In this document: positions 796-33,589 of the stretch, piece after piece
Position numbering within the stretch: position 1 is the stretch's first letter
How the letters are laid out: each line of letters starts with the position of its first letter
Origin: Dehalococcoidia bacterium
Lineage (GTDB): Bacteria; Chloroflexota; Dehalococcoidia; UBA2979
DNA: 38,468 nt
Assembly (NCBI GenBank): GCA_004297315.1
Contig: SCTU01000244.1
Coordinates: 1-38,468 of the forward strand
Direction: 5' to 3'
The notes under the pieces: generated by a model
Database searches by the model: none
Seen by the model: the letters and a program-made list of their open reading frames with translations, nothing else
Told to the model about the DNA's origin: nothing
Program-made: the position numbers and the translations under genes

Positions 796-1593
796 TCACC
801 TCGGAGCACGGCCCGCCGCCTCCGTCAACCAGAACTCGACGAAGATCGTGCCGTCGAAATTCGCGCCGGCCGTGTGCCCCTGGTTTGGGAACTCCACATA
901 GACCGACTTCACGCCAGCCGCCCGGAGCGTCTCGTGAGTCGCCCGTACTTCCTGCTTCCAGCCCTCATCGAGGGCTCCAACGCCGTTGAACACCGCGCGA
1001 CCGGCCATGGCTGCCGTCAGCGCGGCGGCGTCCATGGGCGCCAGTACCCCCGGTGCCCCAAGCAGCGTGTCGAATCGCTGTGGCTCGCGGACCGCGAGGC
1101 CGAATGCCACGAGGCCACCGTTTGAGACGCCCGCCAGATGCGTCGCGGACGGGCGTCCGTAGCAGGCGATCACCTCGTCGATGATCCGGTACGTGCGGCC
1201 CGCCTCACTGATGTAGTCATCTTCAACAACGGTGTAGGGCAGCACCACGCGGAACTCATCGATGCCGCGCGCCTTCGAGAGGTAGTTCGTCCATATGCGC
1301 ATCGCCGAGTTCCGGCGTCCGCTCCCCCCGCCGAGAAACACGACTAACGGTGCGTCGGGACGGTCGGGCATCGGGTCACGGATGAAATATGGGGCCTCGC
1401 CGACGTCCTTGATCTCACGCAACTCCCCGGGGAGGGCGGCGCTGCATCCACCTGCTCGCTGGTCCGAGGCGGCGGTCGGGGTTGACGGCTCGGACGGAGC
1501 GGCTGTCGGGGCCGAGGTACCCACCACCGGGGGGTTCGAGGCATCCGTTGCTGAGGAGCATGCCGTCGTGAACAGCAAGGCCGCACACGCCAT
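796..1593 (-). CDS. Alpha/beta-fold serine hydrolase (esterase-like) lipoprotein
   Basis: The track ORF 796..2130 is credible only from the ATG at 1591-1593. The upstream part is Arg/Pro-rich and overlaps the neighbouring gene. The N-terminus MACAALLFTTAC carries a lipobox. Further motifs are PLVVFLGGGSG, the nucleophile elbow G-V-S-N-G (LAGVSNGG) and a C-terminal NQGHT His. An alternative GTG start at 1677 has an AAGGGA Shine-Dalgarno. Confidence 0.7.
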   Translation of the reverse strand: MACAALLFTTACSSATDASNPPVVGTSAPTAAPSEPSTPTAASDQRAGGCSAALPGELREIKDVGEAPYFIRDPMPDRPDAPLVVFLGGGSGRRNSAMRIWTNYLSKARGIDEFRVVLPYTVVEDDYISEAGRTYRIIDEVIACYGRPSATHLAGVSNGGLVAFGLAVREPQRFDTLLGAPGVLAPMDAAALTAAMAGRAVFNGVGALDEGWKQEVRATHETLRAAGVKSVYVEFPNQGHTAGANFDGTIFVEFWLTEAAGRAPR

Positions 1594-1697
1594 CGCGATC
1601 GCACGGGCGCCCTGGGATCGGCCAAGCCGCCACTGAACGGCGCCGCGGCCCCGAGTGAGAGGCGTCGCAAGGAACACGCATCCCTTTAAGTTGGGCT

Positions 1698-2543
1698 TCA
1701 ATTCGCGATGGTCCGTCTGAGGCGAAACGGTGATGCGCCTTTCCACTGACGCCGAGCGTGATTCGCGACATTGCCGACCAGCAATGCGGCTGGGAGGAAG
1801 TAGACGATGCCGGTGGTCATGAAGAGGAGATATCCGATGCCGGCAACCAGTGCGCCGTACCAGATCTGATCGAAATACCTCGTCGGGCTCGTCGGAGGGT
1901 CGTCGAGTATGTAGCAAGCGAAGAAGACAGCCATGTGCACATCGGATGCGCCGAAGACCTCGGCCACTCTGACAGGGTCGGGGCCGAAAGCGGTGACGGT
2001 AAACAGGCTGAAGTACGTGCCGAGGAACGCGAGGACCAGCGGAAGTTTGTTGACGTGGTCGACGATCCAGATGCCTGGAAGCAGGATCAGCACCATCCCC
2101 GAGGGCCCGTATGCGGAAAGGCCGCCCCACCAGCTCTCGCCCTGGCCGAACATCAGATGGACGGCTACGAGGCCGACGATCGCCGGATTGAAGACGTTCG
2201 TGGTGCCGCTCCGGATCAGGTGCTTGGATGTCACGCCGATCGCCGCAGCCGCTGCCAGAACGTACGCCGGTGCGTAGGGGTCGAGCACGAGCGCGATGAC
2301 CAAGCCCGTAAGCAGAGCGCCGCTCGGGAACTCCGGCGCGCGACGCCAGGCCGCACGCAGAAGCGCGTCTATGGCTACCGCGGTGACCGCAGCCGCCGCT
2401 ACTCCCGGCATCGTCACGCTGAGGCCAGTCGCCACGGAGCCAATCGCCACGATCGCCCCGATGAAGATCAGCATGTAGCCCTTGGGCGATCGCAGTACAT
2501 GTCGTGCCGTGTGCATGGCTTCCGCCGCGTATGCCGCGTTCAC
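1698..2543 (-). CDS. NqrB/RnfD-family-like polytopic membrane protein (stand-alone)
   Basis: The 281-aa product is hydrophobic throughout. The segment LTGLVIALVLDP...IGVTSKHLIRSGTTNVFNPAIVGLV resembles the conserved TGLLLA...K...G.N.FNPA core of NqrB/RnfD. No [ST]GA[ST] flavinylation motif is visible. The GTG start overlaps the apbE stop (GTGA at 2540-2543). Confidence 0.6.
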   Translation of the reverse strand: MNAAYAAEAMHTARHVLRSPKGYMLIFIGAIVAIGSVATGLSVTMPGVAAAAVTAVAIDALLRAAWRRAPEFPSGALLTGLVIALVLDPYAPAYVLAAAAAIGVTSKHLIRSGTTNVFNPAIVGLVAVHLMFGQGESWWGGLSAYGPSGMVLILLPGIWIVDHVNKLPLVLAFLGTYFSLFTVTAFGPDPVRVAEVFGASDVHMAVFFACYILDDPPTSPTRYFDQIWYGALVAGIGYLLFMTTGIVYFLPAALLVGNVANHARRQWKGASPFRLRRTIAN

Positions 2544-3442
2544 GGGGCAGACCTGTCCAGGCCCGGCGTCGCTGTCATCTCGAACGAAGGATCGATGAGT
2601 AACGCTTCGGCGTCGTAACGAGCAATCAGTGGTAGCGCCCGCGCTGGGCCGAGCACGCAGGCGGCTGTAGCGAGCGCATCCGCGAGCATGCCACTGGAGG
2701 CGACGACGGTTGCGCTGATCAGTCCGTGTGCAGACTGGCCGGTCACGGGATCAAGCAGATGATGTCCCTCAGCAACGTCGGGTTGGGTGCGGAGATAACT
2801 GCCCGACGTGCACACCGCCGCGTCTCTTACCTCGAGAACCCGACACGCTGTTGCCGGGTCGCGCGGGTCGCGGACCTGGATTGGCCACGACGGAAGACCT
2901 GGCGGCGCCCCACGGACCAGGAGGTCGCCCCCGGCAGCAATCATGTGATTCGGGAACTTGTGCAGTTCCTCGCTCGCAAGGTCGATCGCAAAGCCCTTCG
3001 CCACGGCTCCGAGGTCGAGCGTCATCGCGGTCTCCAACGTAACTTTGCGGCGCGGCACGTCGATTGAGATGTCTCGGTACGACGCCGTGGCCTGACGAGA
3101 TTGCGGTGAAGACTCGACGCCGTCGCGATAGCCGTATCGGAAGCCAGCACGGATCATCGCGTCGCCCACAGTTGGGTCGAAGGCCCCCTCGCTCGCCTCG
3201 GCCATTCCGATCGCGAACTGAAGCAGGCGGAAGAGCAACGGGCTGACGGCGACGGGCACCCAGACCGTCGCGGAAAGCCGTGCCAGTTCACTGTCGCGGT
3301 CGAATCGGTTGCACGTCGTCTCGACGAGGTGAAACCAGTTGAAGGCGCGCGAGATCGCCTCGCGCGCCTTGCCCATGTCGCCGGGCGGCCAGACCTCAAT
3401 CGTGACGCCAGTGTCCATGAAGATTCGAAGCTGCCTGATCAC
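2540..3442 (-). CDS. apbE: FAD:protein FMN transferase (ApbE family), with no recognisable signal peptide
   Basis: ApbE-type motifs are present: IFMDTGVTIEV (the MGT-type core start at residue 9), FDPTVG, DLGAVAKGFA, AAGGDL and CTSGSY. The GTG start overlaps the stop of the upstream FMN_bind gene (GTGA at 3439-3442). No in-frame start lies further upstream in the ORF track. Confidence 0.85.
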   Translation of the reverse strand: MIRQLRIFMDTGVTIEVWPPGDMGKAREAISRAFNWFHLVETTCNRFDRDSELARLSATVWVPVAVSPLLFRLLQFAIGMAEASEGAFDPTVGDAMIRAGFRYGYRDGVESSPQSRQATASYRDISIDVPRRKVTLETAMTLDLGAVAKGFAIDLASEELHKFPNHMIAAGGDLLVRGAPPGLPSWPIQVRDPRDPATACRVLEVRDAAVCTSGSYLRTQPDVAEGHHLLDPVTGQSAHGLISATVVASSGMLADALATAACVLGPARALPLIARYDAEALLIDPSFEMTATPGLDRSAP

Positions 3443-3981
3443 TTCGAGGCCTTGACCAACGCGTCACTCACGGCCCGCACGTAGGCGCTGCTGCTGTCCG
3501 TTGCGCCGGTAACCCTCGTCACATGCAGGAGGTCCTGGAGTTCGACGACCTGCTCCTCGAGCGGCGCGATGCGGTCGCAGGGATAGCGCGTCCCGCATTC
3601 CGTGATCTGCGCGCCGACGATGAGTCCGCCGGCGATCACGACCTCGACGTCCACCGTGCCGTGAGGGCCGCGGCCCGCGCCGGCGAAGGTCCCGTCACGG
3701 TACGGCGACGGGGTAGACAACGGCGGCGGCGTAGGGCGCAATCCCGGAGTCCCTGGTACCAAAGAGGGCGCGGTCTGCGATGTTGCGCTCGCGAGCCGCA
3801 CGATCGTGTCGAAGTCACGGCGATCGTCAATTGACCGAGTCTGCGTGTAGCCCGCCGCATACACAGCGAGGATGGCCGACGAACTCAGCGCAACCAGGGA
3901 AGGTGAGACCTTACGCCGGCGTCGCGAAGAGGGCCGTGCCACGGGTAGTCCTGTCATCCGGCAATCGAGCGCCGATGCCAA
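3439..3981 (-). CDS. Membrane-anchored FMN-binding-domain protein (predicted ApbE flavinylation substrate)
   Basis: The N-terminus has an Arg run plus a hydrophobic anchor (SSRRRRKVSPSLVALSSSAILAVYAAGY), followed by a Pro-rich linker. The FMN_bind-like core is YRDGTFAGAGRGPHGTVDVEVVIAGGLIVGAQI ... VTRVTGATDSSSAYVRAVSDAL. TGAT matches the [ST]GA[ST] flavinylation motif. An alternative ATG start is at 3957. Confidence 0.8.
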   Translation of the reverse strand: MASALDCRMTGLPVARPSSRRRRKVSPSLVALSSSAILAVYAAGYTQTRSIDDRRDFDTIVRLASATSQTAPSLVPGTPGLRPTPPPLSTPSPYRDGTFAGAGRGPHGTVDVEVVIAGGLIVGAQITECGTRYPCDRIAPLEEQVVELQDLLHVTRVTGATDSSSAYVRAVSDALVKASK

Positions 3982-4008: not shown

Positions 4009-4557
4009 CTAGGGCGCGACCACGGTCAGCGTGCCCTTCAGGTCGGGGTGCAGCGGGTCGCTGACCTGGTACGTCCCTGGAGCCAGGGCATAGAAATGCA
4101 CGACGTCTACCTGCGTGCCGGCAGCGTAGGCGTGGACCTCCTTGAGCGTGGGCTTAACGCCACGCGGCGACGTCCCGCGCCACGCGACGAAATCCTTCGC
4201 ATGATGCTTCTCATGATCTTCCTCGGTGACACCCTCCTCGCGGACCACGTCCTCCTCTTTGGCCGCGAGCCAGAGGATCTCGGTCGCATCGAGGCCCACA
4301 ACGCGATAATGGAACTCGTCAGCACTTCGGTTGCGGAGAATCAATTGGATGCTGGGCCCGGCGGGTATGCGTACATCAGCAGGTTCATAGCCTTTCTCAG
4401 AGACGTCGATGTTGACGGTCACCGCTTCCGCGTCCTCGTCCGGCCGGTACGTGCCATCTCCGCCCGCGCCACAGCTCACGGCGACGAGGGCGACCGCCCC
4501 GAGGAGCGCGACCGCAAACGTGCGCATGATCACCCGTCGTCGCGAGTCCATTGCCAT
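4009..4557 (-). CDS. Cupredoxin-fold-like lipoprotein lacking the copper-ligand Cys
   Basis: A lipobox is present (LVAVSCG). The pattern VTVNIDVSEKGYEPADVRIPAGPSIQLILRNRSADEFHY ... PGTYQVSDPLHPDLKGTLTVV follows the cupredoxin_1 layout (F.P..i.v.aG..v.l...N.....H ... pGtY.f.C...gH..GM.G.l.V). The Cys and the terminal Met positions are substituted. The insertion EEGVTEEDHEKHHAKDF is rich in His and Glu. The start could instead be the ATG at 4551, which has better spacing to GGGGAG. Confidence 0.55.
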   Translation of the reverse strand: MAMDSRRRVIMRTFAVALLGAVALVAVSCGAGGDGTYRPDEDAEAVTVNIDVSEKGYEPADVRIPAGPSIQLILRNRSADEFHYRVVGLDATEILWLAAKEEDVVREEGVTEEDHEKHHAKDFVAWRGTSPRGVKPTLKEVHAYAAGTQVDVVHFYALAPGTYQVSDPLHPDLKGTLTVVAP

Positions 4558-4565: not shown

Positions 4566-5039
4566 CTACGACTGCTTGCCGAGGACTGCGAGATAGGCGA
4601 CGACCGCCTTGATCTCGTCATCAGTCAATTTCACGATCGACATCATGCCGACGGTGGCGAGCGCTTTCCGGACCTGCTCTTCGTCGGCACCCCGGTTCGC
4701 CGGCGCTCCGATGCAGCTGCTGCCCTTGCCGTCCATCCCGTGGCAGGCTGCGCAGCCCACGCCACCTGCGGTCTTCTCAAAGATCTCCTTGCCCCGGACC
4801 AGCACTGCATCCGCAGCGGTTGCCGCGGCCGGGTCGCTTGGCACCGGTGCTGATGCGGCGGCGGCTCCGCCCGGCGCTACGGATAGTGCCGCGATTCCGC
4901 CGCCGGGCCCAGAACTCGCTGGCTGCGACGTTCCGTCCCGGGACGCGGAGGCTGCGCCACCGCAGGCCGTCGCGATCACCATCGCCGCGACCGCAATCAG
5001 TCCCGGGACGAGGATCCTGCGAGCTGTGTGATCCTTCAT
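4566..5039 (-). CDS. Lipoprotein-tethered class I c-type cytochrome
   Basis: A lipobox is present (VIATACGG), followed by an Ala/Ser/Pro-rich linker. The heme motif is CAACH in TAGGVGCAACHGMDGKG, with a candidate distal Met in VGMMSIVKLTDDEI. The ATG at 5037-5039 is preferred over the TTG at 5060. Confidence 0.85.
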   Translation of the reverse strand: MKDHTARRILVPGLIAVAAMVIATACGGAASASRDGTSQPASSGPGGGIAALSVAPGGAAAASAPVPSDPAAATAADAVLVRGKEIFEKTAGGVGCAACHGMDGKGSSCIGAPANRGADEEQVRKALATVGMMSIVKLTDDEIKAVVAYLAVLGKQS

Positions 5040-5097
5040 GTCGTGACTCTTACGCGTCAACGTCTGGGGCTGGCCGAAACGGAGTGCTGATGGCGCG

Positions 5098-5568
5098 CTA
5101 TTGCCCGCCCAAGGACTTCACGAAGGCAGCAACGGCCACGATCTCGTCCTCAGACAACTTGATGAATCCCATGACCGGTACGCCGCCCGCCAGGGCTGCA
5201 CGGATCCTCGAGATGTCGGCGCCTCGGATGTTCGGGGCACCGAGCTTGGCGGCTCCGTCACCGCGAGCTTCCATGCCATGACACATTTGGCAGCCGACGC
5301 CGCCGGCGGTCTGCTGGAAGATGATCTGGCCCTTCGCGATGAGGTCCTTCTCAGGGTCGCCCGTGGAGGCGGGGGCGGTCGCGGGAGCCGTCGTCGAGGT
5401 TACGGGCGCAGACGTGGTGGTCGCTGTCGCTGCCGTCGCTGCCGTCGCCGACGCCTTCACGCCTGCGCCTGCCGTCTCGGCACTCCCGCTGCAGGCGATG
5501 GCTAGGGCAGCCATCGATGCGACGAGGCCGAGCAGGAGTGCGCGCGCGGGCTTGGTGTACATCTTCAT
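5098..5568 (-). CDS. Lipoprotein-tethered class I c-type cytochrome (paralog of 4566..5039)
   Basis: A lipobox is present (LAIACSGS), followed by an Ala/Thr-rich linker. The heme motif is CQMCH in TAGGVGCQMCHGMEARG, with a candidate distal Met in VPVMGFIKLSEDEI. The heme domain aligns by eye along its whole length with the neighbouring cytochrome. Confidence 0.85.
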   Translation of the reverse strand: MKMYTKPARALLLGLVASMAALAIACSGSAETAGAGVKASATAATAATATTTSAPVTSTTAPATAPASTGDPEKDLIAKGQIIFQQTAGGVGCQMCHGMEARGDGAAKLGAPNIRGADISRIRAALAGGVPVMGFIKLSEDEIVAVAAFVKSLGGQ

Positions 5569-5686: not shown

Positions 5687-7168
5687 CTATCGAGCCGGAG
5701 CCGGCGTGGCGGCAGCGGCTGCGACCGAGGCGGCGGCCGCCGCCTTCATCTTTGCCCACATGTCAGGCCCCGGAGTCGCGTGGTCGGCCATCTTGGTGCC
5801 GGCGCCGTCGGCCGCGTAGCTGACGAAGGCGCCAGAGTGCGTGTCACCACCGTACGAGACGGGAATCCGTGCCTTCACCTTGTTGGTGTTCAGGTCCAGG
5901 ACGATCGTCTCCCACGTGCCCGAGCTGCTGATCCACATCTCCGCCTTCGCGGGGTCCGGGTGCAGGATGCCGTGGTCGATGATCTGGCCACCAGTCTCGA
6001 TCGGCATCGGCACGTCCACATTGTTCGGGACGCTCATCGTCTTGGTGTTCATCACCGAGACGCCGCCACCGATGTTGTGCGTGCCTTCACCCTTGCCCAT
6101 GATGTAGAGCTTCGTCTGGTCCCAGCCGAGGCGGATGCCGTACGGGCCAGCCACGCCCGCGCTTCCCTTGGCGACCACGGCGTTCGTCGCCAGGTCGATC
6201 TTGTAGATCATGCTTCCGTGGCCGTCCGCGACGAAGAGGAACTTGCCGTCGGACGTGGCAGCGGTGCCAATCGGGTGGTTGCCCACCTCAGTGATCACCG
6301 TCACGCCGCCGGTCTTCAGGTCAAGCTTCGCGATGTTCGCCACATGCGCCGGAGCCTCGCGGATCCAGGCCGACCCCATCGAGATGAAGAGGTACTGCCC
6401 GGTCGGGTCTGCCGACACATACGGGTGTCCCATCGGAGCGATGTCGGCATCGGTGATGGCCTTGACGACCTTGTTGTCGTCCTTCGGGTCGAGCAAGAAG
6501 TACGGCCCGCCGGTCGCACCAAAGCCATACTCGAGCACCACGCGGTCCTTGCCTTCGAAGTCAACGAAGGAAGTGATGTGGTGGATGTCCTGTGAGCGGT
6601 CCTTGCCTTGGACCTTGCTCGACTGCCTCAGGACCTTGTCGAGTTTCAGCGTCTTCGCGTTGACGACGAGCGTGACGTGCTGTTGTACCTTCTTGTCGTC
6701 CTCGTAGACGTAACCGAGGTACGCCCACTGGCCGTCAGGCGATAGGCCCAGGCCGTGCGGCTGACGGACCGCAGTGCCGCCGAGGTCGAACAGCGCGGAG
6801 GCGATGCTCTCCTTGCTGTTTGCGTCGATCACCTGGATGCCGGGGAGTTTGTTGCTCTTGGACGGCCGGTGCGCGTAGCCCTGCCCGATGCTGGTGAAGT
6901 AGACGAGCGGGTGGGCCTTCATGTCCCACGCGTTGTTACCTTTGGAGTCGTATGTCGCGACGAGTTGTAGGCCGCCACGGAGGGACTCCTCGGTGTTCCA
7001 GCCAGATGCCGCCGCTCCGGCTGCCACCGGTTGGAGCTGGCCCGCCTGGACGATCTTCGTCGCCTCGGTCGACTTGGCCTCCTCCTTCTTCTCGGTGCAG
7101 GCTGCCGCCCCGAGCAGCGTCATCGCTGCCAGGACAACCAGCCCCACTCTGATCACTGGTTTCCTCAT
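5687..7168 (-). CDS. Secreted beta-propeller lipoprotein (YVTN/NosZ-like blade repeats, His-rich); function unknown
   Basis: The ATG at 7166-7168 is preceded by AGGAGG at 6-nt spacing. The lipobox is LLGAAAC. Repeated blade-start motifs are QPHGLGLSPDGQWAYL, MGHPYVSADPTGQYLF, GNHPIGTAATSDGKFLFVAD and GPYGIRLGWDQTKLYI, plus DIHHITSF, IIDHGILHPD and GGDTHSGAF. The C-terminal tail is Ala-rich. Confidence 0.7.
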   Translation of the reverse strand: MRKPVIRVGLVVLAAMTLLGAAACTEKKEEAKSTEATKIVQAGQLQPVAAGAAASGWNTEESLRGGLQLVATYDSKGNNAWDMKAHPLVYFTSIGQGYAHRPSKSNKLPGIQVIDANSKESIASALFDLGGTAVRQPHGLGLSPDGQWAYLGYVYEDDKKVQQHVTLVVNAKTLKLDKVLRQSSKVQGKDRSQDIHHITSFVDFEGKDRVVLEYGFGATGGPYFLLDPKDDNKVVKAITDADIAPMGHPYVSADPTGQYLFISMGSAWIREAPAHVANIAKLDLKTGGVTVITEVGNHPIGTAATSDGKFLFVADGHGSMIYKIDLATNAVVAKGSAGVAGPYGIRLGWDQTKLYIMGKGEGTHNIGGGVSVMNTKTMSVPNNVDVPMPIETGGQIIDHGILHPDPAKAEMWISSSGTWETIVLDLNTNKVKARIPVSYGGDTHSGAFVSYAADGAGTKMADHATPGPDMWAKMKAAAAASVAAAAATPAPAR

Positions 7169-7344
7169 GTCGCTCCTCCTCGCCTCCCCTTCGGCCATCC
7201 GAATGGTCAAGCGCAATCCCGTTACCAAGCGTTAGTACTCCGCCGTCGAGTGCGATCGTCGGGGCGCGGGTGCATGGCGAGAACACCAGAAATGGTGGGG
7301 GCCGATGTGGGGAGCGCTAGGGGGACGAGGCAACTGAGGAATGG

Positions 7345-8013
7345 TTACCGACGCAGATACCCGCGTTGCACCGCCCACGCCACCACTTCCGCGCGATTGC
7401 GGAGATGCAGCTTGCCGAAGATGTTCTTCAGGTGGAAGTTCACCGTGTTCTCGGAGATGCCAAGCCTGAGCGCGACTTCGCGGGTGCGCCCACCACGCGC
7501 GACCTCCGTGAGGACGTCTCGCTCCCGGGGCGTGAGACCAGACTCTTGGGGTGCCCCGACCGCGGCGTTCGCCCTGCCGACGTGCGTGAATTCATTGAGG
7601 AGGTTGCGCGCCAGTCGTGGCGAAATCACGGGCTCACCACGGCGCATTTGCTCCACGAACTTCTCGAATTCGTCCTCGGCAAGGTCTTTGAGCAGATAGC
7701 CCTCAGCGCCGCTCTTCACGGCCTCGAACAGGTCCCCCTCGTCGTCCGAGACAGTGAGGATCACCACACGCACCGCAGGCCATTCGGCCTTGATCGCGCG
7801 GGTCGCCTCAAGCCCGTTCATGTCGGGCATGCGGATGTCCATGAAGACGACGTCCGGGTGCAGTTGACGCACTGCCTCCACAGCGGCCGCACCATCCGCT
7901 GCCTCGCCTACGACTTCGAATTGCCACGCACGGAGCAGGGAAGCGAGCCCCGCGCGGATGAGCGCGTGGTCATCCACGAGAAGGACGCGGAGCGCATGGG
8001 GAGGCTCGGTCAT
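7345..8013 (-). CDS. NarL/FixJ (LuxR-type HTH) family response regulator
   Basis: The receiver domain shows LLVDDH...VVFMDIRMPDMNGLE...ILTVSDD. The C-terminal LuxR HTH shows LTPRERDVLTEVARGGRTREVALRLGISENTVNFHLKNIFGKL. The ATG overlaps the kinase stop (ATGA at 8010-8013). Confidence 0.9.
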   Translation of the reverse strand: MTEPPHALRVLLVDDHALIRAGLASLLRAWQFEVVGEAADGAAAVEAVRQLHPDVVFMDIRMPDMNGLEATRAIKAEWPAVRVVILTVSDDEGDLFEAVKSGAEGYLLKDLAEDEFEKFVEQMRRGEPVISPRLARNLLNEFTHVGRANAAVGAPQESGLTPRERDVLTEVARGGRTREVALRLGISENTVNFHLKNIFGKLHLRNRAEVVAWAVQRGYLRR

Positions 8014-9881
8014 CGCTCAATCGGCATCCTGACCACGACGCGGGTCCCCCGCCCGACGTGGCTCTCGATATCGAAAGTGCCTCCGGCGGCCTGTGCGCGT
8101 TCTCGCATCATCTGCAAGCCGAACCGCGGTCGCCCAGTGGCGGGCAGGGCCTCCGGATCGAAGCCAGCGCCGTCGTCGCTGACCTCGACGACCAACGTGT
8201 CGCAGTCGACCGACAGCCTCGTCTGGACAGAGGTGGCGACGGCGTGCTGCCGGACATTACTGAGCGCCTGCTGCACGATACGGATCAACTGGATCTCGCA
8301 GGTGGGAGTGCGCCGGACGCGCTCCACCTCCGGCGCTACCTCCAATACTGCATCGATGCCGAACATCTCCCGGTACGAGGTGATGTACTCCGCGAGTGCC
8401 GCCGTGAAGCCTTGTTCGCCTGGGGCCGAGCGCAGCGCAAGGATGTTGTCGCGCACATCGGCATAGAGCGAGCGGGCCGCCGCGTCGAGGTGTCGCAACT
8501 CCTCGAGCGCCGTGACCGTATTTCCGCTGTCCAGCAGTTTGCGCACCGCCAGCACCTGCGTGTTCACATAGCCCAAGATCTGCCCCATGCCATCGTGCAT
8601 CTCGCGCGAGATGCGTTCGCGCTCCTGCATGATAGAGACTTCCTGGATCTTCCGGTGCAGGTTGGCATTCTCGACGGCTGGCGCGATCTGATCGCCAATC
8701 GCATCGAGCAGGCTCAACTCGGAACGCCGCGACATCGAAGACGCCTCACTGGCCGCCAGCACCATCACACCGACGGAGCTACCGCGGAAACACAGCGGGA
8801 CCGCACAGCACACGCGATATCCCCGCGCGGTGAGGGCGTCGTTGAAGTCGGGCTCGCCAGCGACTACGCGGATCGTCTTACCCGTCACCGTCGCCCGTCC
8901 CAGGAGCCCCTTGCCATGGGGCGAGTGGGTGATATCAAGGAGAGGCTCGTTGACAGCATCGGCGCGGCAGTGCAAGACCAGTCCGTCGCCGCTCGAAAGC
9001 CAGATTTCGCCTTCGTCTGCCCTCGTGAGCTTCGTGACCGCGCTCAGCGCGCGCGCGAGCACATCGTCCAGGTCCAGGGAGGAGGAGGTGGCTGCCTGCA
9101 CGTCGAGCAGTGCCGAGAGTTCGCGGTTCTGTGCGACCGAAGCGTCATACAGCTCTGCGTTGTGGATCGCTAACCCCAGATGCTGTCCCACGCCATGAAG
9201 AAAGGCGTAGTCGTCATCATCAAATCGGTACTCACGCCGATAGGCCACGACGACGATGCCGTTCACCGCCCCAGAACACATCAGAGGGACGCTCACCCCT
9301 GACATGATGCCCTCCTTCGTGGAGATCGCGCGGACATCGGGGTCGCTGAGCACGTTGCCGAATCGGACTGGCTGGCCGCTCCGGACGACTTCGGAAGCGA
9401 TCACGTCTTCCGCGAGTTTGGCACGCTGGATGCGCTGCATGACCGCCGGGGAGAACCCGCGGGAACCGATGGCTGTGTGCTCCTCCTCGTCAGCGAACAG
9501 ACGGCAAACAAGACTCGCGTCCGCCCCGGTCGCCGCGACGATCTGATCGAGCCCGCGCCCGACCGTGGTCGCCAGGTCAAGGTTCTCGGAGGTTGCCGCT
9601 GCCAGACGGTTGAGTGCCTCGATCTGCGCTGAGCGCTTCGCTGCACGCGCCTCGAAACGGGCGATCTGGCGGAAGACCGAAAGTGCAAAAAAGCCGGCGC
9701 CCGCGGTCACGAGAAGCAAGGTCACTACAAACCCGAGCGGGCTCCGCCAGAGGCTATCCGCCGTGCTTCGCTGGGCGAACTCCAGCAACATAATGAACGC
9801 AACCGGGGCCACGATCGTCGTCCAGCGCAGGCGGCGAAGCTCCGATGCAAGCTTCTGTTGCCGAGGCAGGGTGATTTCCAT
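8010..9881 (-). CDS. Sensor histidine kinase with 2 TM segments, two GAF domains, HisKA_3 and HATPase_c
   Basis: Two N-terminal hydrophobic segments are separated by a very short loop. Two GAF-like blocks are visible (LDLATTVGRGLDQIV... and LDLDDVLARALSAV...). The H-box is REMHDGMGQILGY and the ATPase motifs are LSNVRQHA, DDGAGF and GLQMMRERA. The ATG at 9879-9881 has a GGAGGG Shine-Dalgarno. The track's longer start at 9947 is less supported. Confidence 0.85.
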   Translation of the reverse strand: MEITLPRQQKLASELRRLRWTTIVAPVAFIMLLEFAQRSTADSLWRSPLGFVVTLLLVTAGAGFFALSVFRQIARFEARAAKRSAQIEALNRLAAATSENLDLATTVGRGLDQIVAATGADASLVCRLFADEEEHTAIGSRGFSPAVMQRIQRAKLAEDVIASEVVRSGQPVRFGNVLSDPDVRAISTKEGIMSGVSVPLMCSGAVNGIVVVAYRREYRFDDDDYAFLHGVGQHLGLAIHNAELYDASVAQNRELSALLDVQAATSSSLDLDDVLARALSAVTKLTRADEGEIWLSSGDGLVLHCRADAVNEPLLDITHSPHGKGLLGRATVTGKTIRVVAGEPDFNDALTARGYRVCCAVPLCFRGSSVGVMVLAASEASSMSRRSELSLLDAIGDQIAPAVENANLHRKIQEVSIMQERERISREMHDGMGQILGYVNTQVLAVRKLLDSGNTVTALEELRHLDAAARSLYADVRDNILALRSAPGEQGFTAALAEYITSYREMFGIDAVLEVAPEVERVRRTPTCEIQLIRIVQQALSNVRQHAVATSVQTRLSVDCDTLVVEVSDDGAGFDPEALPATGRPRFGLQMMRERAQAAGGTFDIESHVGRGTRVVVRMPIER

Positions 9882-10029
9882 CGATTCCCTCCGCCCGACT
9901 CTAGCAGGGAGCCACGACCGAGGCGCTACCAGTTCTTGTGGGTTCAACTCTGTGCCCGAGCCCTAGGCTCGTCAGTATCACGACGTGGCTCCATCCGAGG
10001 CACGTGCCGCAAGGCCAGGAGAAGAACCA

Positions 10030-10260
10030 ATGCGATCAGCCGTCTTGCGGTCCGCAGCGCGGATGGCAACTGTGATTGGCGTCGCCGCTCTTGCGGCGCT
10101 CGCCCGTCCAAGTGTCGTCCTGGCCCATGACGGGGAGGATAAGTCGCTTTCGCATGTGCTCCTCGATGTGGGTGTGTGGAGCCTCGGTGCGGTCGCAGTA
10201 CTCGGACTGCTCGTCGCGGTCCTCTGGCTGAGGGCTCGGCGACGAGGACTCGACACGTGA
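10030..10260 (+). CDS. Small secreted, C-terminally anchored protein (76 aa) whose mature end is predicted to begin HDGED
   Basis: The ATG at 10030 has AGGAG 8 nt upstream. The signal-peptide-like N-terminus is MRSAVLRSAARMATVIGVAALAALARPSVVLA|HDGEDKSLSH. A C-terminal TM segment (VWSLGAVAVLGLLVAVLWL) is followed by RARRR. The stop overlaps a possible GTG start of the next gene. Confidence 0.45.
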   Translation: MRSAVLRSAARMATVIGVAALAALARPSVVLAHDGEDKSLSHVLLDVGVWSLGAVAVLGLLVAVLWLRARRRGLDT

Positions 10261-10277
10261 GCACCGGTGAGGGTCTG

Positions 10278-11705
10278 ATGGCTCCTCCCGCGCGGCAGCG
10301 ACTCCCGCTGCTCGGACGCATGTCATCCACCGCGTGGATCTTCGTTGGCCTGGTCGGCGTCACGCTGTCCGCCTGGCTCGCCCTCGCATACCTCTTCAGC
10401 GGCATGGGCGGCGGGACGAGCGTTGTGGAAACCCAACGCGTCATCAAGTCGCTGTCTAGCACGACCGCGAAGCATGGCGCGCTCGAGTTCCGGGCGGTCG
10501 CAGTGACGCCGGACTACTTCCGTGTGACCGACCGAGGTGACGAACTCTTCGCCCTAGACCCGAAGAAGAATCTCGCGACGATGGTGGATTCGCCGGAATA
10601 CTTCGACACCTTCAACAAGAGTTCGGCCGACCTCGGCGTCGACCCGGAGCGCTACCTCTCACTACTCGTCACCGTGGCCGTACACGAGGGTGATCTCCCC
10701 GCGACCGAGAGCTGGCTGGAGAGCATCGTCCTGAGGTCCGGAGACGTGGGCGTCGCGCCGCTGCCGGCGCATAAGGTTGCCTACCGCTCCGAACACCATG
10801 TGACGCTTGCCTTGCAGTTCCCTCGCAAAGACGAGAACGGTGTCGCACTGCTGAAGGAAGAAGGCCAACTGCGACTCGTCGCCCCCGGGTTCGCGCCCGA
10901 CCAAGAGCCGCTGGCGGTCTCATGGCAATTGCCGCTCGCCGACACGTCCGACGCGGGGGCGATCGGGGCCGGCGCAACGATGGGGGGCATGCTCGCCGTC
11001 TTCGCGGGCCTGCTTGTCATCTTCTCCCCTTGCGCGGTGCACATGACGGCGTACTTCCTGCCGATGATTACAGGTCTCGGCATGAAGGAGGTCCTGGACC
11101 GGACTGACGACATCCGTTTTCGAGCGCGGCTCATGTCGCTTGCGCTCGCCTTTGTGGGAGGCTTTGTCGTCCTGTACACGCTCTTCGGGGTTGCGGCCGG
11201 GTTCGCCGGCCAATTCTTCTCGGACACGGCGCGACTTGCCCCCTACGTGACGCCGCTGCGCATCTTCGCCGGCACGGTCGTGATCTTCATGGCGATGCAG
11301 ACGCTGGGCGTGTTCCGGCTGCCGTTTGTCTTGAACCTCGCGATACCGGGACGTCCGCATGCAGCAGGTGCGCGGGCTGGCTATTTCGCCGCGGTCGTGT
11401 CTGGGATGACTGTTTCGATGGGCTGCCTGACCTGTGTTGGTGGATCGCTACTCGCGGCGCTCCTCATCTACGCAGGCGCCTCGGGCTCGCCGATGACCGG
11501 TGGGCTGACGCTCTTCCTGTTCTCGTGCGGGATGAGCATCCCGTTCCTCGTTGCCGCGTTTGCCTTCCAGCGGGCGGTGCCGAAGTTCACGGGCGCGCGC
11601 CGGCTGCTGCGGTACTCCACGACCGCGGCGGCTGCACTCATGCTCGTGATGGGCTTGCTCATCATCAGCGGCAACGACTCAATTTTCGAGCGGCTCGTCC
11701 TCTAG
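10278..11705 (+). CDS. Fusion protein with an N-terminal TM, a ~200-aa extracytoplasmic domain of unknown family and a CcdA/DsbD-type (cytochrome c biogenesis) transmembrane thiol-reductant transporter
   Basis: The C-terminal half has 6 or more hydrophobic helices with the CcdA hallmarks LLVIFSPCAVHM (SPC in TM1) and SMGCLTCVGGSLL (the second Cys-containing helix). The N-terminal part has one TM (WIFVGLVGVTLSAWLALAYLF) and then a soluble domain with no motif I recognise. Alternative starts are a GTG at 10257 (GTGA overlap with the upstream stop) and an ATG at 10320. Confidence 0.7.
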   Translation: MAPPARQRLPLLGRMSSTAWIFVGLVGVTLSAWLALAYLFSGMGGGTSVVETQRVIKSLSSTTAKHGALEFRAVAVTPDYFRVTDRGDELFALDPKKNLATMVDSPEYFDTFNKSSADLGVDPERYLSLLVTVAVHEGDLPATESWLESIVLRSGDVGVAPLPAHKVAYRSEHHVTLALQFPRKDENGVALLKEEGQLRLVAPGFAPDQEPLAVSWQLPLADTSDAGAIGAGATMGGMLAVFAGLLVIFSPCAVHMTAYFLPMITGLGMKEVLDRTDDIRFRARLMSLALAFVGGFVVLYTLFGVAAGFAGQFFSDTARLAPYVTPLRIFAGTVVIFMAMQTLGVFRLPFVLNLAIPGRPHAAGARAGYFAAVVSGMTVSMGCLTCVGGSLLAALLIYAGASGSPMTGGLTLFLFSCGMSIPFLVAAFAFQRAVPKFTGARRLLRYSTTAAAALMLVMGLLIISGNDSIFERLVL

Positions 11706-13635: not shown

Positions 13636-13810
13636 CGCCGTCACCCTCCCCACCGCAGCCACCGAACGTGGGGTGGCGTGCCGCGCATGCTAGCGGACAG
13701 GCACACGAATCCGCGCGCCGGTCCCCCGGAGGAGGAGTCGGACCGCCGGCGGTAAACGAAGGGCGCCGCGCTCACGCGCGACGCTCTCGTTGGCTGGCGG
13801 CGAGAGGTCG

Positions 13811-25623: not shown

Positions 25624-25859
25624 CGCACGCTCCTTGTCCTGCGCCTCTTGACGCCGCGTCCCGGTGCGCGGCGGCGCGCTGATGGTACCCGCGACCGCCG
25701 CACTTCGGCTGCCTAATCTGCCCGAACGGATGTGCGCCCGGAAGCCCCGCATTGCCCCGCGGGTAACACGTCTGTATTGTCAGGCGCGACAGGGCGAGCC
25801 CGGTACCCGTTGACGCGACCGGCGCAGGCGATCCCACATTCACCGTACGGAGAACAACC

Positions 25860-30814: not shown

Positions 30815-30963
30815 AAGACTTACCCCTCCGGAACTGCGCGCCCACCCTCAGCGCGGCTGTATACTACTACGCACGCAATATGACGCGCGGATTGGTGGCC
30901 CGATTAGTCGGGCGTCCATGGATTTATTTTCCCGTACCGCCGGTACGCAGGACGGGTGCAGAA

Positions 30964-32181: not shown

Positions 32182-32227
32182 TGCAATCACCTGCCTGCCG
32201 GGCGCGGTGCCACGAGGAGCGAGAGCG

Positions 32228-33508: not shown

Positions 33509-33537
33509 ACCCAACGCTTTCGGGGCCGAGCACCGAG

Positions 33538-33563: not shown

Positions 33564-33589
33564 CCTCTTCATGAGCTGTTTGCGACAGG

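What the first reader, a model, noticed from the sequence alone, without database searches (positions are those of the whole stretch)
5687..7168. Beta-propeller lipoprotein with His at most blade entrances: candidate NosZ/thiocyanate-dehydrogenase-type multicopper site
Numbering is from the 7228 ORF start. Blade-start motifs are QPH158GLGLSPDGQWAYL, DIH216H217ITSF, MGH268PYVSADPTGQYLF, GNH318PIGTAATSDGKFLFVAD, GPYGIRLGWDQTKLYI, IIDH419GILH423PD and GGDTH464SGAF. In N2O reductase (CuZ) and in thiocyanate dehydrogenase (trinuclear Cu), the metal cluster on the propeller axis is held by one adjacent His-His pair plus single His residues from other blades. PHG...SPDGxY and DxHH are close to the NosZ motifs as I remember them. 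There are caveats. The motif order is not collinear with NosZ, no CuA domain is fused, and the P.G..SPDG pattern is generic to YVTN and lactonase propellers. The protein is also strongly Lys-rich (by hand count about 36 K and about 10 R), unlike the Arg-rich cytoplasmic proteins here. The other secreted protein I checked (the SBP) is also Lys-rich, so this may reflect localisation rather than foreign origin.
Basis: inference. Interest (0 to 1): 0.7.

Follow-up and report, generated by a model that had tools for sequence, protein, structure and literature searches.

The report
Uncharacterised His-lined propeller redox enzyme
This gene encodes a membrane-anchored, secreted beta-propeller whose central channel is ringed by conserved histidines and which always travels with (or is fused to) a cytochrome c or blue-copper domain, so it is most likely an undescribed metal-dependent respiratory enzyme that resembles, but does not belong to, the nitrous-oxide reductase and thiocyanate dehydrogenase families.

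Summary
The sequence features are real. Window 5687-7168 (-) encodes a 493-aa lipoprotein, and AlphaFold2 predicts a beta-propeller (pLDDT 84). Histidines sit at the start of the innermost strand of most blades.

Conservation supports a functional site:
- H86, H248, H364 and H403 are conserved only in the closer subfamily.

It is not NosZ (clades I-III) or thiocyanate dehydrogenase (TcDH) by any sequence test. It lacks a CuA domain and nosDFYL neighbours, and it appears eight-bladed, like cytochrome cd1.

It is also not an inert YVTN or lactonase protein:
- 37 of the 120 closest relatives carry a fused cytochrome c that is 51-61% identical to the two cytochromes downstream here.
- Distant relatives carry fused type-1 cupredoxins.
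- A GAF-kinase/NarL regulator, a DsbD-type membrane protein, cupredoxin or YtkA-like copper proteins, and quinol- or flavin-based electron modules recur around it.

Best reading: a new family of extracytoplasmic redox metalloenzymes, probably copper and probably a terminal reductase. The metal, the site geometry and the substrate were not shown.

The parts
5687..7168 (-). Gene for the 493-aa lipoprotein beta-propeller, the subject of the finding.
   Evidence: ORF and translation. AF2 model with pLDDT 84.3 and pTM 0.85, all-beta, eight first-strand starts. 426 homologues at E<=1e-3.
7097..7168 (-). Sec-type signal peptide ending in the lipobox Cys24 (MRKPVIRVGLVVLAAMTLLGAAAC). This is the only Cys in the protein.
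   Evidence: Sequence. Homologues align from this Met and share the ...AC/GC lipobox.
6755..6757 (-). Conserved in 39 of 40 sequences of the wide alignment.
   Evidence: It has the same repeat register (PHG....PDG) as the CuZ ligand His326 motif SPHGINTAPDG of S. meliloti NosZ.
6578..6583 (-). Conserved in 39 and 38 of 40 sequences.
5972..5977 (-). H399 is invariant (40/40); D398 is in 38/40.
5837..5839 (-). Invariant (40/40).
6077..6094 (-). GK359GE361GTH364N loop between strands 2 and 3 of blade 6. K359 is in 39/40 and E361 in most sequences. H364-N365 is conserved only in the closer subfamily; distant members have G/A-Q.
6425..6427 (-). Invariant among the 25 close homologues but variable (N, G, R...) in the wider family.
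6911..6913 (-). H86, conserved in the closer subfamily only. It lies before strand 2 of blade 1, so it may be on the opposite face.
5960..5962 (-). Nearly invariant among close homologues; N or S in distant ones.
6275..6277 (-). Not conserved, and out of register with the other His.
5098..5568 (-). Class I c-type cytochrome lipoprotein (CQMCH), 118 bp downstream of the propeller gene.
   Evidence: PF00034/PF13442. 51% identical to the cytochrome c domain fused to the propeller in P0096.
4566..5060 (-). Second class I c-type cytochrome lipoprotein (CAACH).
   Evidence: PF00034/PF13442. 61% identical to the fused cytochrome c domain of P0096.
4009..4557 (-). Cupredoxin_1 lipoprotein with a His-rich insert (EEDHEKHH). 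Orthologues carry a type-1-like TEHH...CPLHP site; here, and in the closest relative, the Cys is Asp (DPLHP).
   Evidence: PF13473, E=3e-11. Alignment A3. Present next to the propeller in all five further contexts aligned in A3 (L001, L003, L004, L005, L007), plus a 181-aa protein with no Pfam hit at the same position in L008.
3439..3981 (-). Membrane-anchored FMN-binding domain protein with a TGAT flavinylation-type motif.
   Evidence: PF04205, 21.3 bits, just under the cut-off of 22. Sequence.
2540..3442 (-). ApbE flavin transferase. Its start overlaps the stop of the FMN_bind gene by 4 bp.
   Evidence: PF02424, E=5.7e-58.
1698..2543 (-). NqrB/RnfD-like polytopic membrane protein, the last gene of the operon. 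A terminator-like hairpin lies at 1598-1581, but such hairpins are not above chance in this region.
   Evidence: PF03116, E=4e-12.
7345..8013 (-). NarL/LuxR-type response regulator directly upstream.
   Evidence: PF00072 + PF00196. The same pairing appears in relatives at 27% identity.
8010..9947 (-). Histidine kinase with two GAF domains, HisKA_3 and HATPase_c.
   Evidence: Conserved beside family members in L001, L007, L008, L090, L092 and L093.
10176..11705 (+). DsbD_TM/CcdA-type membrane protein with a Cys-free extracytoplasmic N-terminal domain of about 270 aa (true start uncertain). Transcribed divergently from the kinase.
   Evidence: PF02683, E=4.8e-17. A protein of this type is adjacent to family members in L001, L003, L005, L007, L008, L024, L090, L091, L092 and L093.
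9985..10260 (+). Small single-pass membrane protein, conserved with the 77-aa gene before DsbD in the closest relative.

Best explanation
The gene encodes the catalytic subunit of an undescribed family of extracytoplasmic, membrane-anchored redox metalloenzymes.

Proposed mechanism:
- The protein is a YVTN-type propeller, probably eight-bladed and cd1-like.
- It presents a ring of His side chains at the top of its central channel. The invariant core is H138, H196-H197, D398-H399 and H444, with K359 and E361 from a loop above. In this subfamily H248, H364 and H403 are added.
- These residues bind a metal centre, most likely two to four copper ions inserted outside the cell after Sec export.
- Electrons enter or leave through the two downstream class I cytochromes c. 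In relatives the partner is a fused cytochrome c or a fused type-1 cupredoxin.
- In this organism the cytochromes would be fed from the cytoplasmic side by a flavinylated FMN-binding protein, ApbE and an RnfD-like membrane module.
- The GAF kinase and NarL-type regulator upstream would control expression.
- The enzyme probably acts as a terminal reductase of a high-potential small molecule. An N-oxide such as N2O, NO or nitrite, or O2 or a peroxide, are the obvious candidates. An oxidative role like that of TcDH is not excluded.

Shown: the fold class, the conservation of the His and Lys/Glu/Asp set, the domain fusions, and the conserved gene neighbourhood.

Inferred: that the His side chains converge, that the metal is copper, the direction of electron flow, and the substrate.
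For: Fold and site:
- The AF2 model is confident (pLDDT 84.3) and all-beta, with the His at the N-terminal ends of the innermost strands. H138 and H399 have the same repeat register (H-G-x3-4-PD) as the known CuZ ligand motif SPHGINTAPDG of NosZ.
- H138, H196, H197, H248, H364, H399 and H444 are invariant in 25 homologues of 49-81% identity.
- H138, H196, H197, H399 and H444, plus K359, D398, E410 and W412, are at least 90% conserved in 40 cluster representatives down to 23% identity. That is 5 His among 22 conserved columns.

Electron-transfer partners:
- 37 of the 120 best homologues are 569-733 aa, and most of these carry PF00034/PF13442.
- The fused domain is 61% and 51% identical to the two cytochromes downstream here.
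- Distant members carry C-terminal cupredoxins with H...C-x2-H-x2-M type-1 sites, or N-terminal cytochrome c.
- The best NCBIfam match of that cupredoxin domain is the NosZ C-terminal domain.

Conserved neighbourhood:
- GAF/PAS kinase, NarL regulator, propeller, DsbD_TM protein and YtkA-like or cupredoxin proteins recur in Chloroflexota, Acidobacteriota and a Rhodobacteraceae isolate. This holds even at 27% identity.
- YtkA/CtaK domains act in copper-site assembly (PMC13344008).
- Different lineages add different electron modules. These are Fer4_11+NrfD, a NapH/NosR-like Fer4_5 protein with CuA-type cupredoxins, CydA-like plus cytochrome c, and FMN_bind+ApbE+RnfD-like here.
- FMN-binding domains are described as feeding extracytosolic reductases (PMC8238504).

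Export: a Sec/lipoprotein signal and no Cys in the mature protein fit metal insertion outside the cell into an all-His site.
Against: - No coordinates were available, so convergence of the His was not measured.
- No metal was determined.
- Foldseek's best PDB matches are generic propellers: a YVTN surface-layer protein, NirN/NirF/NirS, YncE and amine dehydrogenase. TM-scores are about 0.45-0.49, and NosZ and TcDH are absent from the top 50.
- H248 and H364 are lost in the wider family, so a seven-His, CuZ-like site cannot be universal.
- No nosD/F/Y/L-type sulfur and copper assembly genes occur in any of the contexts read.
- The copper-handling neighbours could serve the cupredoxins rather than the propeller.
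- CydA-like modules could equally mean that electrons flow away from the propeller to oxygen.
Confidence: 0.6

Rival explanations
1. It is a cd1-type propeller that binds a tetrapyrrole (haem d1, a precursor, or another haem) in the wide eight-bladed channel, with one His as axial ligand and others as distal residues. It would work like NirS, NirN or NirF with a cytochrome c partner.
For: - Foldseek ranks NirN, NirF and NirS second to about twentieth, with 410-490 aligned columns.
- 14 of 40 family representatives match Pfam Cytochrom_D1. Several score above the gathering threshold of 25.5 bits, and one matches collinearly over profile positions 80-367 of 368.
- Many cupredoxin-fused relatives carry a precomputed PF02239 hit.
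- Eight first-strand starts are predicted.
- NirS and NirN also join a cytochrome c domain to a propeller.
Against: - The window protein itself has no PF02239 hit at E<=1.
- The invariant set is five His plus Lys, Glu and Asp, with no conserved Arg cluster of the kind that holds haem d1 carboxylates (own knowledge of NirS structures).
- No haem d1 biosynthesis genes occur in the contexts read.
- The neighbours are copper proteins. Fusion to type-1 cupredoxins is not known for cd1 enzymes.
Confidence: 0.12
2. It is part of a copper homeostasis system. The His-lined propeller would sequester copper or pass it on as a chaperone, as AztD does for zinc, or oxidise Cu(I) using cytochrome c or cupredoxin as acceptor. 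It would not be a respiratory enzyme.
For: - Conserved neighbours are copper-related: cupredoxin_1 proteins with His-rich inserts, YtkA-like proteins, and a DsbD_TM-family membrane protein that could move reductant or metal.
- The C-terminal cupredoxins of some members weakly match the copper-resistance protein CopI.
- The zinc-chaperone propeller AztD appears among the weak structural and HMM matches.
Against: - The associated two-component system is GAF/PAS-HisKA_3 with a NarL-type regulator, not the CusRS/CopRS type. No CopA/CusCBA efflux genes were seen.
- Dedicated quinol-dehydrogenase-like modules (NrfD+Fer4_11, NapH-like, CydA-like) and flavin conduits point to sustained electron flux, which a chaperone would not need.
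Confidence: 0.12
3. It is a non-catalytic YVTN/YncE-type cell-surface or binding protein. The conserved His would be structural or bind a ligand such as a cofactor or nucleic acid, and the link to cytochromes would be incidental.
For: - The best PDB sequence match is the archaeal surface-layer YVTN propeller 1l0q (E=1e-18 to 1e-23).
- Sources name homologues 'YncE family protein' or 'DNA-binding beta-propeller fold protein YncE'.
- BtuG cobalamin-binding propellers are among the Foldseek hits.
Against: - The match to 1l0q is repeat-level only (19% identity, several overlapping stretches).
- Covalent fusions to cytochrome c occur at either end, and to type-1 cupredoxins, in many independent lineages.
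- The regulatory and maturation module is conserved, and the conserved columns are enriched in His.
- These are hard to explain without redox chemistry.
Confidence: 0.08

Closest known systems
Nitrous-oxide reductase NosZ (clades I and II; CuZ [4Cu:2S] on the axis of a 7-bladed propeller plus a C-terminal CuA cupredoxin; cNosZ has an extra cytochrome c)
   Same: - A propeller with His at the start of the innermost strands.
- In the close subfamily the ring order H, HH, H, none, H, H, H equals that described for CuZ, where blade I gives H, blade II gives HH, blade IV gives none and the others give H (PMC11573801).
- Local motifs are alike (PHG....PDG; DxHH).
- The enzyme is Sec-exported, as clade II NosZ is.
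- Relatives carry a C-terminal cupredoxin whose best HMM match is the NosZ C-terminal domain, or a fused cytochrome c as in cNosZ.
- Neighbourhoods include ApbE/FMN-binding, NapH/NosR-like and Fer4+NrfD modules, which parallel NosR/NosX and NosGH.
   Different: - No hit to TIGR04244 or TIGR04246.
- hhalign gives 9.6% probability over one generic blade.
- Probably eight blades.
- No CuA domain in this protein, and type-1 rather than CuA sites in the fused relatives.
- Only five of the His are invariant family-wide.
- No nosDFYL neighbours. The partner maturation genes are of DsbD_TM and YtkA type instead.
Clade III lactonase-type N2O reductase (L-NosZ, NCBIfam NF052460; He et al. 2025, Nature 646:152, cited through PMC13477213 and PMC11033732)
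   Same: - Both have a YVTN/lactonase-type rather than a classical Nos propeller.
- Both are found in groundwater and soil lineages.
- Neighbourhoods lack the canonical nos accessory genes and contain cytochromes and transporters (PMC13477213).
- It sets a precedent: an overlooked propeller family turned out to reduce N2O.
   Different: - This protein scores 22.7 bits against a cut-off of 700, over a region that is out of register. Canonical NosZ scores 178 bits on the same model, including its CuA region.
- L-NosZ carries a cupredoxin (CuA) domain; this protein does not.
- 30 of 40 family members hit the model, but no more strongly than they hit other generic YVTN models.
Thiocyanate dehydrogenase TcDH (7-bladed propeller, trinuclear Cu in the central tunnel, cytochrome c552/c550 as acceptor)
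   Same: - An all-His/Asp metal site on a propeller axis with a separate class I cytochrome c partner.
- The residue inventory is similar. TcDH has K103, H135-H136, H206, E288, D314, H381, H437, H482 and H528-D529 (PMC6504805). This protein has K359, E361, H196-H197, D398-H399, H138, H444, and also H248, H364 and H403.
- Copper-handling genes and a GAF-containing kinase lie nearby in some TcDH loci (PMC6504805).
   Different: - No TcDH chain appears in sequence or profile searches of the PDB at E<=10, nor in the Foldseek top 50.
- TcDH is Tat-exported, whereas this protein has a Sec/lipoprotein signal.
- TcDH has seven blades, against probably eight here.
- The neighbourhood here favours electron supply (quinol and flavin modules) rather than substrate oxidation, although this is not decisive.
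Cytochrome cd1 propeller family (NirS, NirN, NirF; Pfam PF02239)
   Same: - An eight-bladed propeller with a cofactor in the channel and an attached cytochrome c domain.
- It gives the closest enzyme structural matches in the PDB after the YVTN surface-layer protein 1l0q, alongside non-enzymatic propellers such as YncE.
- Several distant family members pass the PF02239 threshold.
   Different: - The window protein has no PF02239 hit.
- The conserved residues are a His ring rather than one axial His with Arg-rich carboxylate binding.
- No haem d1 synthesis genes lie nearby.
- The neighbours and fusions are copper proteins.
YVTN / YncE / lactonase-type cofactor-free propellers (TIGR02276 repeat, 1l0q, 3vgz)
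   Same: The repeat sequence (P-x-G-...-S/T-P/x-D-G-K-x-hydrophobic strand) and the fold.
   Different: Those proteins lack the invariant His/Lys/Glu/Asp set, the cytochrome c and cupredoxin fusions, and the conserved redox and copper gene neighbourhood.

Membership tests
NosZ clade I/II (TIGR04244 / TIGR04246) | Scores above the family HMM cut-off (625 bits). | tested here: not met
   Neither model hits at E<=1 for the window protein. A genuine NosZ (S. meliloti) scores 1128 and 478 bits with the same tool.
NosZ clade I/II (TIGR04244 / TIGR04246) | Seven His ligands of CuZ, one blade giving HH and one blade giving none. | tested here: inconclusive
   The close subfamily has H138, HH196/197, H248, none, H364, H399 and H444, in the same ring order (PMC11573801). 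H248 and H364 are not conserved in the wider family, H364 lies on a loop, and the 3D geometry could not be measured.
NosZ clade I/II (TIGR04244 / TIGR04246) | C-terminal CuA cupredoxin domain. | tested here: not met
   The protein ends after the propeller with a short helix, and there is no cupredoxin hit. Fused relatives have type-1 (H...C-x2-H-x2-M) sites, not CuA sites.
NosZ clade I/II (TIGR04244 / TIGR04246) | Seven-bladed propeller. | tested here: inconclusive
   The DSSP string of the model shows eight innermost-strand starts, and the cd1-type matches suggest eight blades. No coordinates were available to confirm.
NosZ clade I/II (TIGR04244 / TIGR04246) | nosDFY/nosL maturation genes in the cluster. 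| tested here: not met
   None was seen in the window or in the annotated contexts read.
L-NosZ clade III (NF052460) | Scores above the equivalog cut-off (700 bits), with a collinear match that includes the cupredoxin region. | tested here: not met
   The score is 22.7 bits, with residues 244-439 matched to profile positions 85-258, which is out of register. The best family member reaches only E=2.9e-19.
Thiocyanate dehydrogenase | Detectable sequence similarity to the solved TcDH chains (5F75 family). | tested here: not met
   No TcDH entry appears among the matches at E<=10 with the single sequence or with the 25-sequence profile.
Thiocyanate dehydrogenase | Active-site set K103, H135, H136, Q156, H206, E288, D314, H381, H437, H482, H528, D529, R544 (PMC6504805). 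| tested here: inconclusive
   A similar inventory is conserved here (K, E, D, an HH pair and further single His). No alignment places the residues in correspondence, and there is no conserved Arg/Gln counterpart.
Thiocyanate dehydrogenase | Tat export of the folded enzyme. | tested here: not met
   The N-terminus is a Sec-type lipoprotein signal with no twin-arginine motif.
Cytochrome cd1 propeller (PF02239) | Passes the Pfam gathering threshold (25.5 bits). | tested here: not met
   The window protein has no hit at E<=1. 14 of 40 relatives hit, several of them above threshold, so the family borders this Pfam family.
Cytochrome cd1 propeller (PF02239) | Bound haem d1 or dihydro-haem d1. | not testable with these tools
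   This needs spectroscopy. The only indirect evidence is that no d1 biosynthesis genes occur in the contexts read.
YVTN-type beta-propeller superfamily | YVTN repeat and propeller fold. | tested here: met
   TIGR02276 scores 24.5 bits, just below its cut-off of 27.85. 1l0q matches at E=1.2e-18 in four stretches. Foldseek gives probability 1.0 to 1l0q and YncE.

The most novel reading that the evidence does not exclude
This family could be a fourth, unrecognised lineage of N2O reductase, or of another N-oxide reductase. It would be an eight-bladed YVTN/cd1-type propeller carrying a NosZ-like ring of His around a copper cluster. Electrons would enter through haem c or a type-1 copper domain instead of CuA. 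Maturation would use a DsbD_TM/YtkA/cupredoxin system instead of NosDFYL. It is widespread in Chloroflexota, SAR202, Acidobacteriota (Vicinamibacterales), Actinomycetota and some marine Rhodobacteraceae, so it would be invisible to all current nosZ surveys.
Probability: 0.12. Interest if true: 0.9.

Novelty: new variant of a known kind. Interest (0 to 1): 0.68.

Why it matters
Propeller enzymes with an axial metal cluster are few: NosZ, TcDH and cd1 NirS. Each catalyses a key step of the nitrogen or sulfur cycle. The 2025 discovery of lactonase-type NosZ showed that whole families of such enzymes had been missed.

This family has hundreds of members in abundant but poorly cultured soil, groundwater and ocean lineages. 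It has its own conserved regulator and maturation genes and is hard-wired to cytochrome c or blue-copper domains, yet it is annotated only as 'hypothetical' or 'YncE family'.

If it is a reductase of N2O, NO, nitrite or oxygen species, gene-based budgets of these processes in Chloroflexota- and Acidobacteriota-rich habitats are incomplete. If it is an oxidase of a sulfur or nitrogen compound, it adds a new energy source for these groups. Either way it offers a new copper-site architecture, and a soluble single-subunit target that can be tested directly.

Tried and rejected
- **Family assignment from curated HMMs.** Pfam gave only a sub-threshold SGL hit. NCBIfam gave weak, generic YVTN-type hits (PQQ_ABC_repeats, hydrazine synthase beta, L-NosZ at 22.7 bits). 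None is usable.
- **PDB sequence and profile searches.** Only repeat-level matches appeared. NosZ 1fwx scored E=0.41, and TcDH was absent.
- **Foldseek against the PDB.** All propellers scored alike and there was no specific neighbour.
- **Comparison with a real NosZ.** I recovered S. meliloti nosZ from pSymA. Both hhalign and hmmsearch aligned only the most canonical blade, our blade 5 with the NosZ HH blade, and not the register suggested by the His ring order.
- **The search for related loci with the wide alignment.** This failed because no conserved stretch was available. The narrower alignment found about 25 true loci, nearly all MAGs.
- **Blue-copper gene beside DsbD.** The closest relative has one; it is absent from the window.
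- **Sensor identity of the kinase.** PDB hits match only the ATPase and DHp parts (VraS, DesK, DevS/DosT). The GAF domains were not matched to DosS/DosT, so an O2/NO-sensing role is only an architectural analogy.
- **Solved relatives of the accessory cupredoxin and the cupredoxin-DsbD fusion.** Nothing significant was found.
- **Literature.** No paper in the held library describes this family. 'NosZ-like' reports concern L-NosZ (PMC11033732) or CuA-only DPANN proteins (bioRxiv 10.1101/2023.10.30.564641). The He et al. Nature paper itself is not held.
- **Foreign origin from the Lys-rich composition.** The cytochromes are also K>R. The cupredoxin and FMN-binding proteins are not. Gene GC is only about 4 points lower than the surroundings. 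I left this open.


Full report
**1. What is in the sequence**

The minus-strand ORF 5687..7228 is present. Homologues begin at the ATG at 7168 (MRKPVIRVGLVVLAAMTLLGAAAC), a Sec-type lipoprotein signal whose Cys24 is the only Cys of the protein.

All the quoted motifs are there. Window GC is 61-70% per kb, mostly 64-70%, with a shallow dip to 62.7% over the gene.

The closest relatives are a 90%-identical protein from a sequencing-run assembly and a Dehalococcoidia MAG protein (78% identical by BLASTP, 81% in alignment A1). The window therefore most likely comes from a member of the Chloroflexota.

**2. Fold**

AlphaFold2 with a 25-sequence alignment gives a confident all-beta model: mean pLDDT 84.3, pTM 0.85. 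Only the signal peptide, the linker and one loop are disordered.

The strand list groups into four-stranded blades. Their first strands start at residues 67, 138, 195, 247, 299, 342, 396 and 446. That is eight, and the last blade has only two C-terminal strands. The very conserved but poorly modelled N-terminal segment VVQAGQLQP...GW may supply the rest.

Foldseek against the PDB returns only generic propellers: the YVTN surface-layer protein 1l0q, then NirN, YncE, NirF, aromatic amine dehydrogenase and NirS, at TM-scores of about 0.45-0.49. NosZ and TcDH are not in the top 50.

Several distant family members pass the Pfam Cytochrom_D1 threshold, and one matches collinearly over profile positions 80-367 of 368. 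I therefore think the fold is eight-bladed and cd1-like. I could not confirm this, because no tool returns coordinates.

**3. Are the histidines meaningful?**

Each listed His lies at, or one or two residues before, the start of an innermost strand. In propellers that position is the mouth of the central channel on the face that carries the D-A and B-C loops (established knowledge of the fold).

H138 and H399 have exactly the register of the CuZ ligand motif SPH326GINTAPDG in S. meliloti NosZ, which I recovered from pSymA for comparison.

Among 25 homologues of 49-81% identity, H138, H196, H197, H248, H364, H399 and H444 are invariant. H86 and H403 are nearly so.

A profile search of 1.84 billion cluster representatives found about 50 full-length clusters before generic YVTN repeat proteins take over. 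In an alignment of 40 of these (23-51% identity, mean column identity 19%), the following stay at least 90% conserved: H138, H196, H197, H399, H444, K359, D398, E410, W412 and Y150. Five of the 22 conserved columns are His, against 3% His in the protein.

H248, H364, H86 and H403 belong to the closer subfamily only.

H318 should be dropped. H384 (ORF numbering) and the GKGE loop should be added. There is a five-His core and a nine-His subfamily version.

**4. The His ring compared with NosZ**

In NosZ, blade I gives one His, blade II gives two consecutive His, blade IV gives none, and the other blades give one each (PMC11573801).

Here the order around the ring is:
- blade 2: H138
- blade 3: H196-H197
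- blade 4: H248
- blade 5: none
- blade 6: H364, from a loop
- blade 7: H399
- blade 8: H444
- blade 1: none

This is the same order, with one extra ligand-free blade. From the HH pair onward the two are also collinear in sequence. The resemblance is suggestive for the close subfamily. It is not evidence of homology, and it does not hold for the wider family.

**5. Family membership tests**

- **NosZ.** The window protein has no hit to either NosZ HMM, whereas genuine NosZ scores 1128 and 478 bits.
- **L-NosZ.** The window protein scores 22.7 bits on the L-NosZ model against a cut-off of 700, over an out-of-register stretch. Genuine NosZ scores 178 bits on the same model, including the CuA region.
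- **Direct comparison with NosZ.** hhalign gives 9.6% probability over one blade. hmmsearch of the family profile against NosZ gives 14 bits.
- **TcDH.** No TcDH chain is found in the PDB by sequence or profile at E<=10.
- **Domains and neighbours.** There is no CuA domain, no Tat signal and no nosDFYL neighbour.

Membership of NosZ clades I-III and of TcDH is rejected. What remains is the weaker claim that it works like them.

**6. Why it is nevertheless a redox enzyme**

*Cytochrome c fusions.* Of the 120 best homologues, 37 are 569-733 aa, and most of these carry cytochrome c Pfam domains. The fused domain of the acidobacterial P0096 is 61% and 51% identical to the two cytochromes encoded immediately downstream here.

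*Cupredoxin fusions.* Other members carry the cytochrome at the N-terminus. Many distant members, a large Chloroflexota/Actinomycetota subfamily annotated only as 'cupredoxin domain-containing protein' or 'plastocyanin', carry one or two C-terminal cupredoxins with classical type-1 ligands. Examples are ...HN...CTYHPSM and CAYHPQM. The best NCBIfam match of that cupredoxin is the C-terminal domain of Sec-type NosZ (P0161 residues 417-562 against profile 422-560, 33 bits).

A propeller that evolution has repeatedly welded to one-electron carriers almost certainly holds a redox-active site.

**7. Gene neighbourhood**

In the window the genes form a tight minus-strand operon: propeller, cytochrome c, cytochrome c, cupredoxin_1 lipoprotein, FMN-binding protein (TGAT motif), ApbE, and an RnfD-like membrane protein. 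Gaps range from -4 to 118 bp. A GAF-GAF-HisKA_3 kinase and a NarL-type regulator lie upstream. A divergent small membrane protein and a DsbD_TM protein lie beyond them.

The closest relative has the identical layout.

A core recurs across Chloroflexota, SAR202, Acidobacteriota and a Rhodobacteraceae isolate with at least three paralogues. It also recurs in the cupredoxin-fused subfamily at 27% identity. The core is a GAF/PAS kinase, a NarL regulator, the propeller, a DsbD_TM protein of about 450 aa, and a YtkA-like and/or cupredoxin_1 protein.

YtkA/CtaK domains act in copper-site assembly in Bacillus (PMC13344008).

The accessory cupredoxin has a TEHH...CPLHP site in most orthologues. In the window and its closest relative it reads DPLHP, and it also has a His-rich insert.

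Around this core, different lineages place different membrane electron modules:
- Fer4_11 + NrfD with a cytochrome c or cupredoxin subunit
- a NapH/NosR-like Fer4_5 protein with two CuA-motif cupredoxins and a plastocyanin-like protein
- CydA-like plus cytochrome c
- the flavinylated FMN_bind/ApbE/RnfD-like set here. This resembles the NQR/RNF-like class described as a one-way conduit to extracytosolic acceptors, although the RnfD-like protein here lacks the cytosolic NqrF-like domain that defines that class (PMC8238504).

This mix-and-match pattern is what is seen for periplasmic terminal reductases such as Nos, Nap and Nrf (established knowledge). Electron flow from quinol to a high-potential cytochrome c or blue copper is downhill. 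I therefore favour a reductase of a high-potential substrate. The CydA-like modules could instead mean delivery of electrons to oxygen, so the direction is not settled.

**8. Most likely mechanism**

The protein is exported unfolded by Sec and lipid-anchored outside the membrane. It is then loaded with metal, most likely copper, with the help of the cupredoxin-like and YtkA-like proteins and the DsbD-type membrane protein.

The metal centre would be held by H138, H196/H197, H399 and H444, plus H248, H364 and H403 in this subfamily. D398, K359 and E361 would act as extra ligand and acid-base residues. This inventory recalls the TcDH set K103/E288/D314/H136 (PMC6504805).

The two cytochromes c shuttle electrons between the flavin/RnfD-like conduit and the propeller. 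The kinase-regulator pair switches the operon on under a redox or substrate signal.

Confidence that it is a redox metalloenzyme with an axial His-bound metal site is about 0.6. Confidence that the metal is copper is about 0.5. For a reductase role it is about 0.4, and for N2O specifically about 0.1.

**9. Rivals**

- A cd1-like tetrapyrrole site has fold-level support, but the conserved residues and the copper neighbours speak against it.
- A copper-homeostasis role is supported by the copper neighbours, but the respiratory modules and the regulator type speak against it.
- An inert YVTN/YncE-like protein is supported only by repeat-level similarity and database names.

It is met only by remote PDB matches at about 19% identity, not by the true family.

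**10. Novelty**

Sources name the homologues 'hypothetical', 'YncE family', 'c-type cytochrome' or 'cupredoxin domain-containing'. No curated HMM covers them, and I found no paper describing them.

I rate it a new variant of a known kind, namely propeller enzymes with an axial metal cofactor and an attached electron-transfer domain. It has its own fold subtype, ligand set, partner domains and maturation module.

The main limits are that everything is computational. The geometry was inferred from strand register rather than measured, and the substrate is unknown.

Noticed in passing
window 4009-4557 (-): In the operon's cupredoxin_1 lipoprotein the copper-ligand Cys of its orthologues (CPLHP) is replaced by Asp (DPLHP). 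The same is true in the closest relative. The protein also carries a His-rich insert (EEDHEKHH). This may mark a switch from a type-1 electron-transfer site to a type-2 or chaperone-like copper site.
   Followed up: partly
window 21920-23687 (-): An SBP_bac_5 solute-binding protein is split over two overlapping ORFs. ORF 22776-23687 matches profile positions 2-93, and ORF 21920-22894 matches positions 125-363. This suggests a frameshift, a pseudogene or an assembly error.
   Followed up: no
window 1698-3981 (-): The FMN_bind (TGAT motif), ApbE and RnfD-like genes overlap by 4 bp at each junction. They resemble the 'NQR/RNF-like' flavinylation clusters of PMC8238504, but the RnfD-like protein (281 aa) lacks the cytosolic NqrF-like NAD-binding domain that defines that class. 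The cytoplasmic electron donor is therefore unclear.
   Followed up: partly
window 796-2130 (-): A 444-aa ORF overlaps the RnfD-like gene by about 430 bp. Its C-terminal part is esterase-like (weak PF00756 hit) and contains an internal lipoprotein-like signal (AMACAALLFTTACSS). The real gene probably starts near 1600 and encodes a secreted hydrolase.
   Followed up: no
window 9985-11705 (+): The DsbD_TM protein has a Cys-free extracytoplasmic N-terminal domain of about 270 aa with no Pfam match. In an acidobacterial relative the equivalent protein is a cupredoxin_1-DsbD_TM fusion (L003:9761-11551). The blue-copper protein that follows DsbD in the closest relative (L001:3934-4404) is missing from the window.
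   Followed up: partly
L005:1096-3860 (-): Beside one family member lie two small membrane-anchored cupredoxins with full CuA motifs (CSNTCGVDHAKM and CLETCGNFHPYM). They flank a NapH/NosR-like polytopic Fe-S protein, and a plastocyanin-like protein is also present. This is an unusual stand-alone CuA module.
   Followed up: no
L019:7986-9743; L024:5706-7514 and 8001-9257: The Rhodobacteraceae genome Alg231_30 (not labelled as a MAG) carries at least three paralogues fused to cytochrome c. One sits between tuf and the rplC-rplD-rplW ribosomal protein genes. Two are tandem, next to a DsbD_TM gene, a second YNCE-like propeller and a free cytochrome c. It is the only non-MAG host found, so it is a possible experimental system.
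   Followed up: partly
homologues P0015, P0080, P0121, P0138 (alignments A1 and A2, N-terminal region): Many homologues have a 40-100 residue coiled-coil-like spacer rich in Q, E, K and A between the lipid anchor and the propeller. One source even names P0081 'murein-binding lipoprotein Lpp'. The window protein has only a short K/E-rich linker. The spacer may hold the enzyme away from the membrane.
   Followed up: no
window 23812-24639 (-), 12634-13662 (-), 24655-25752 (-), 30880-36682: The rest of the window is ordinary heterotroph metabolism. It holds a two-domain rhodanese, two luciferase-like monooxygenases, an Fe-alcohol dehydrogenase, three family III CoA-transferase paralogues, an enoyl-CoA hydratase and ABC permeases. 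No nitrogen- or sulfur-respiration genes were seen that could hint at the substrate.
   Followed up: partly
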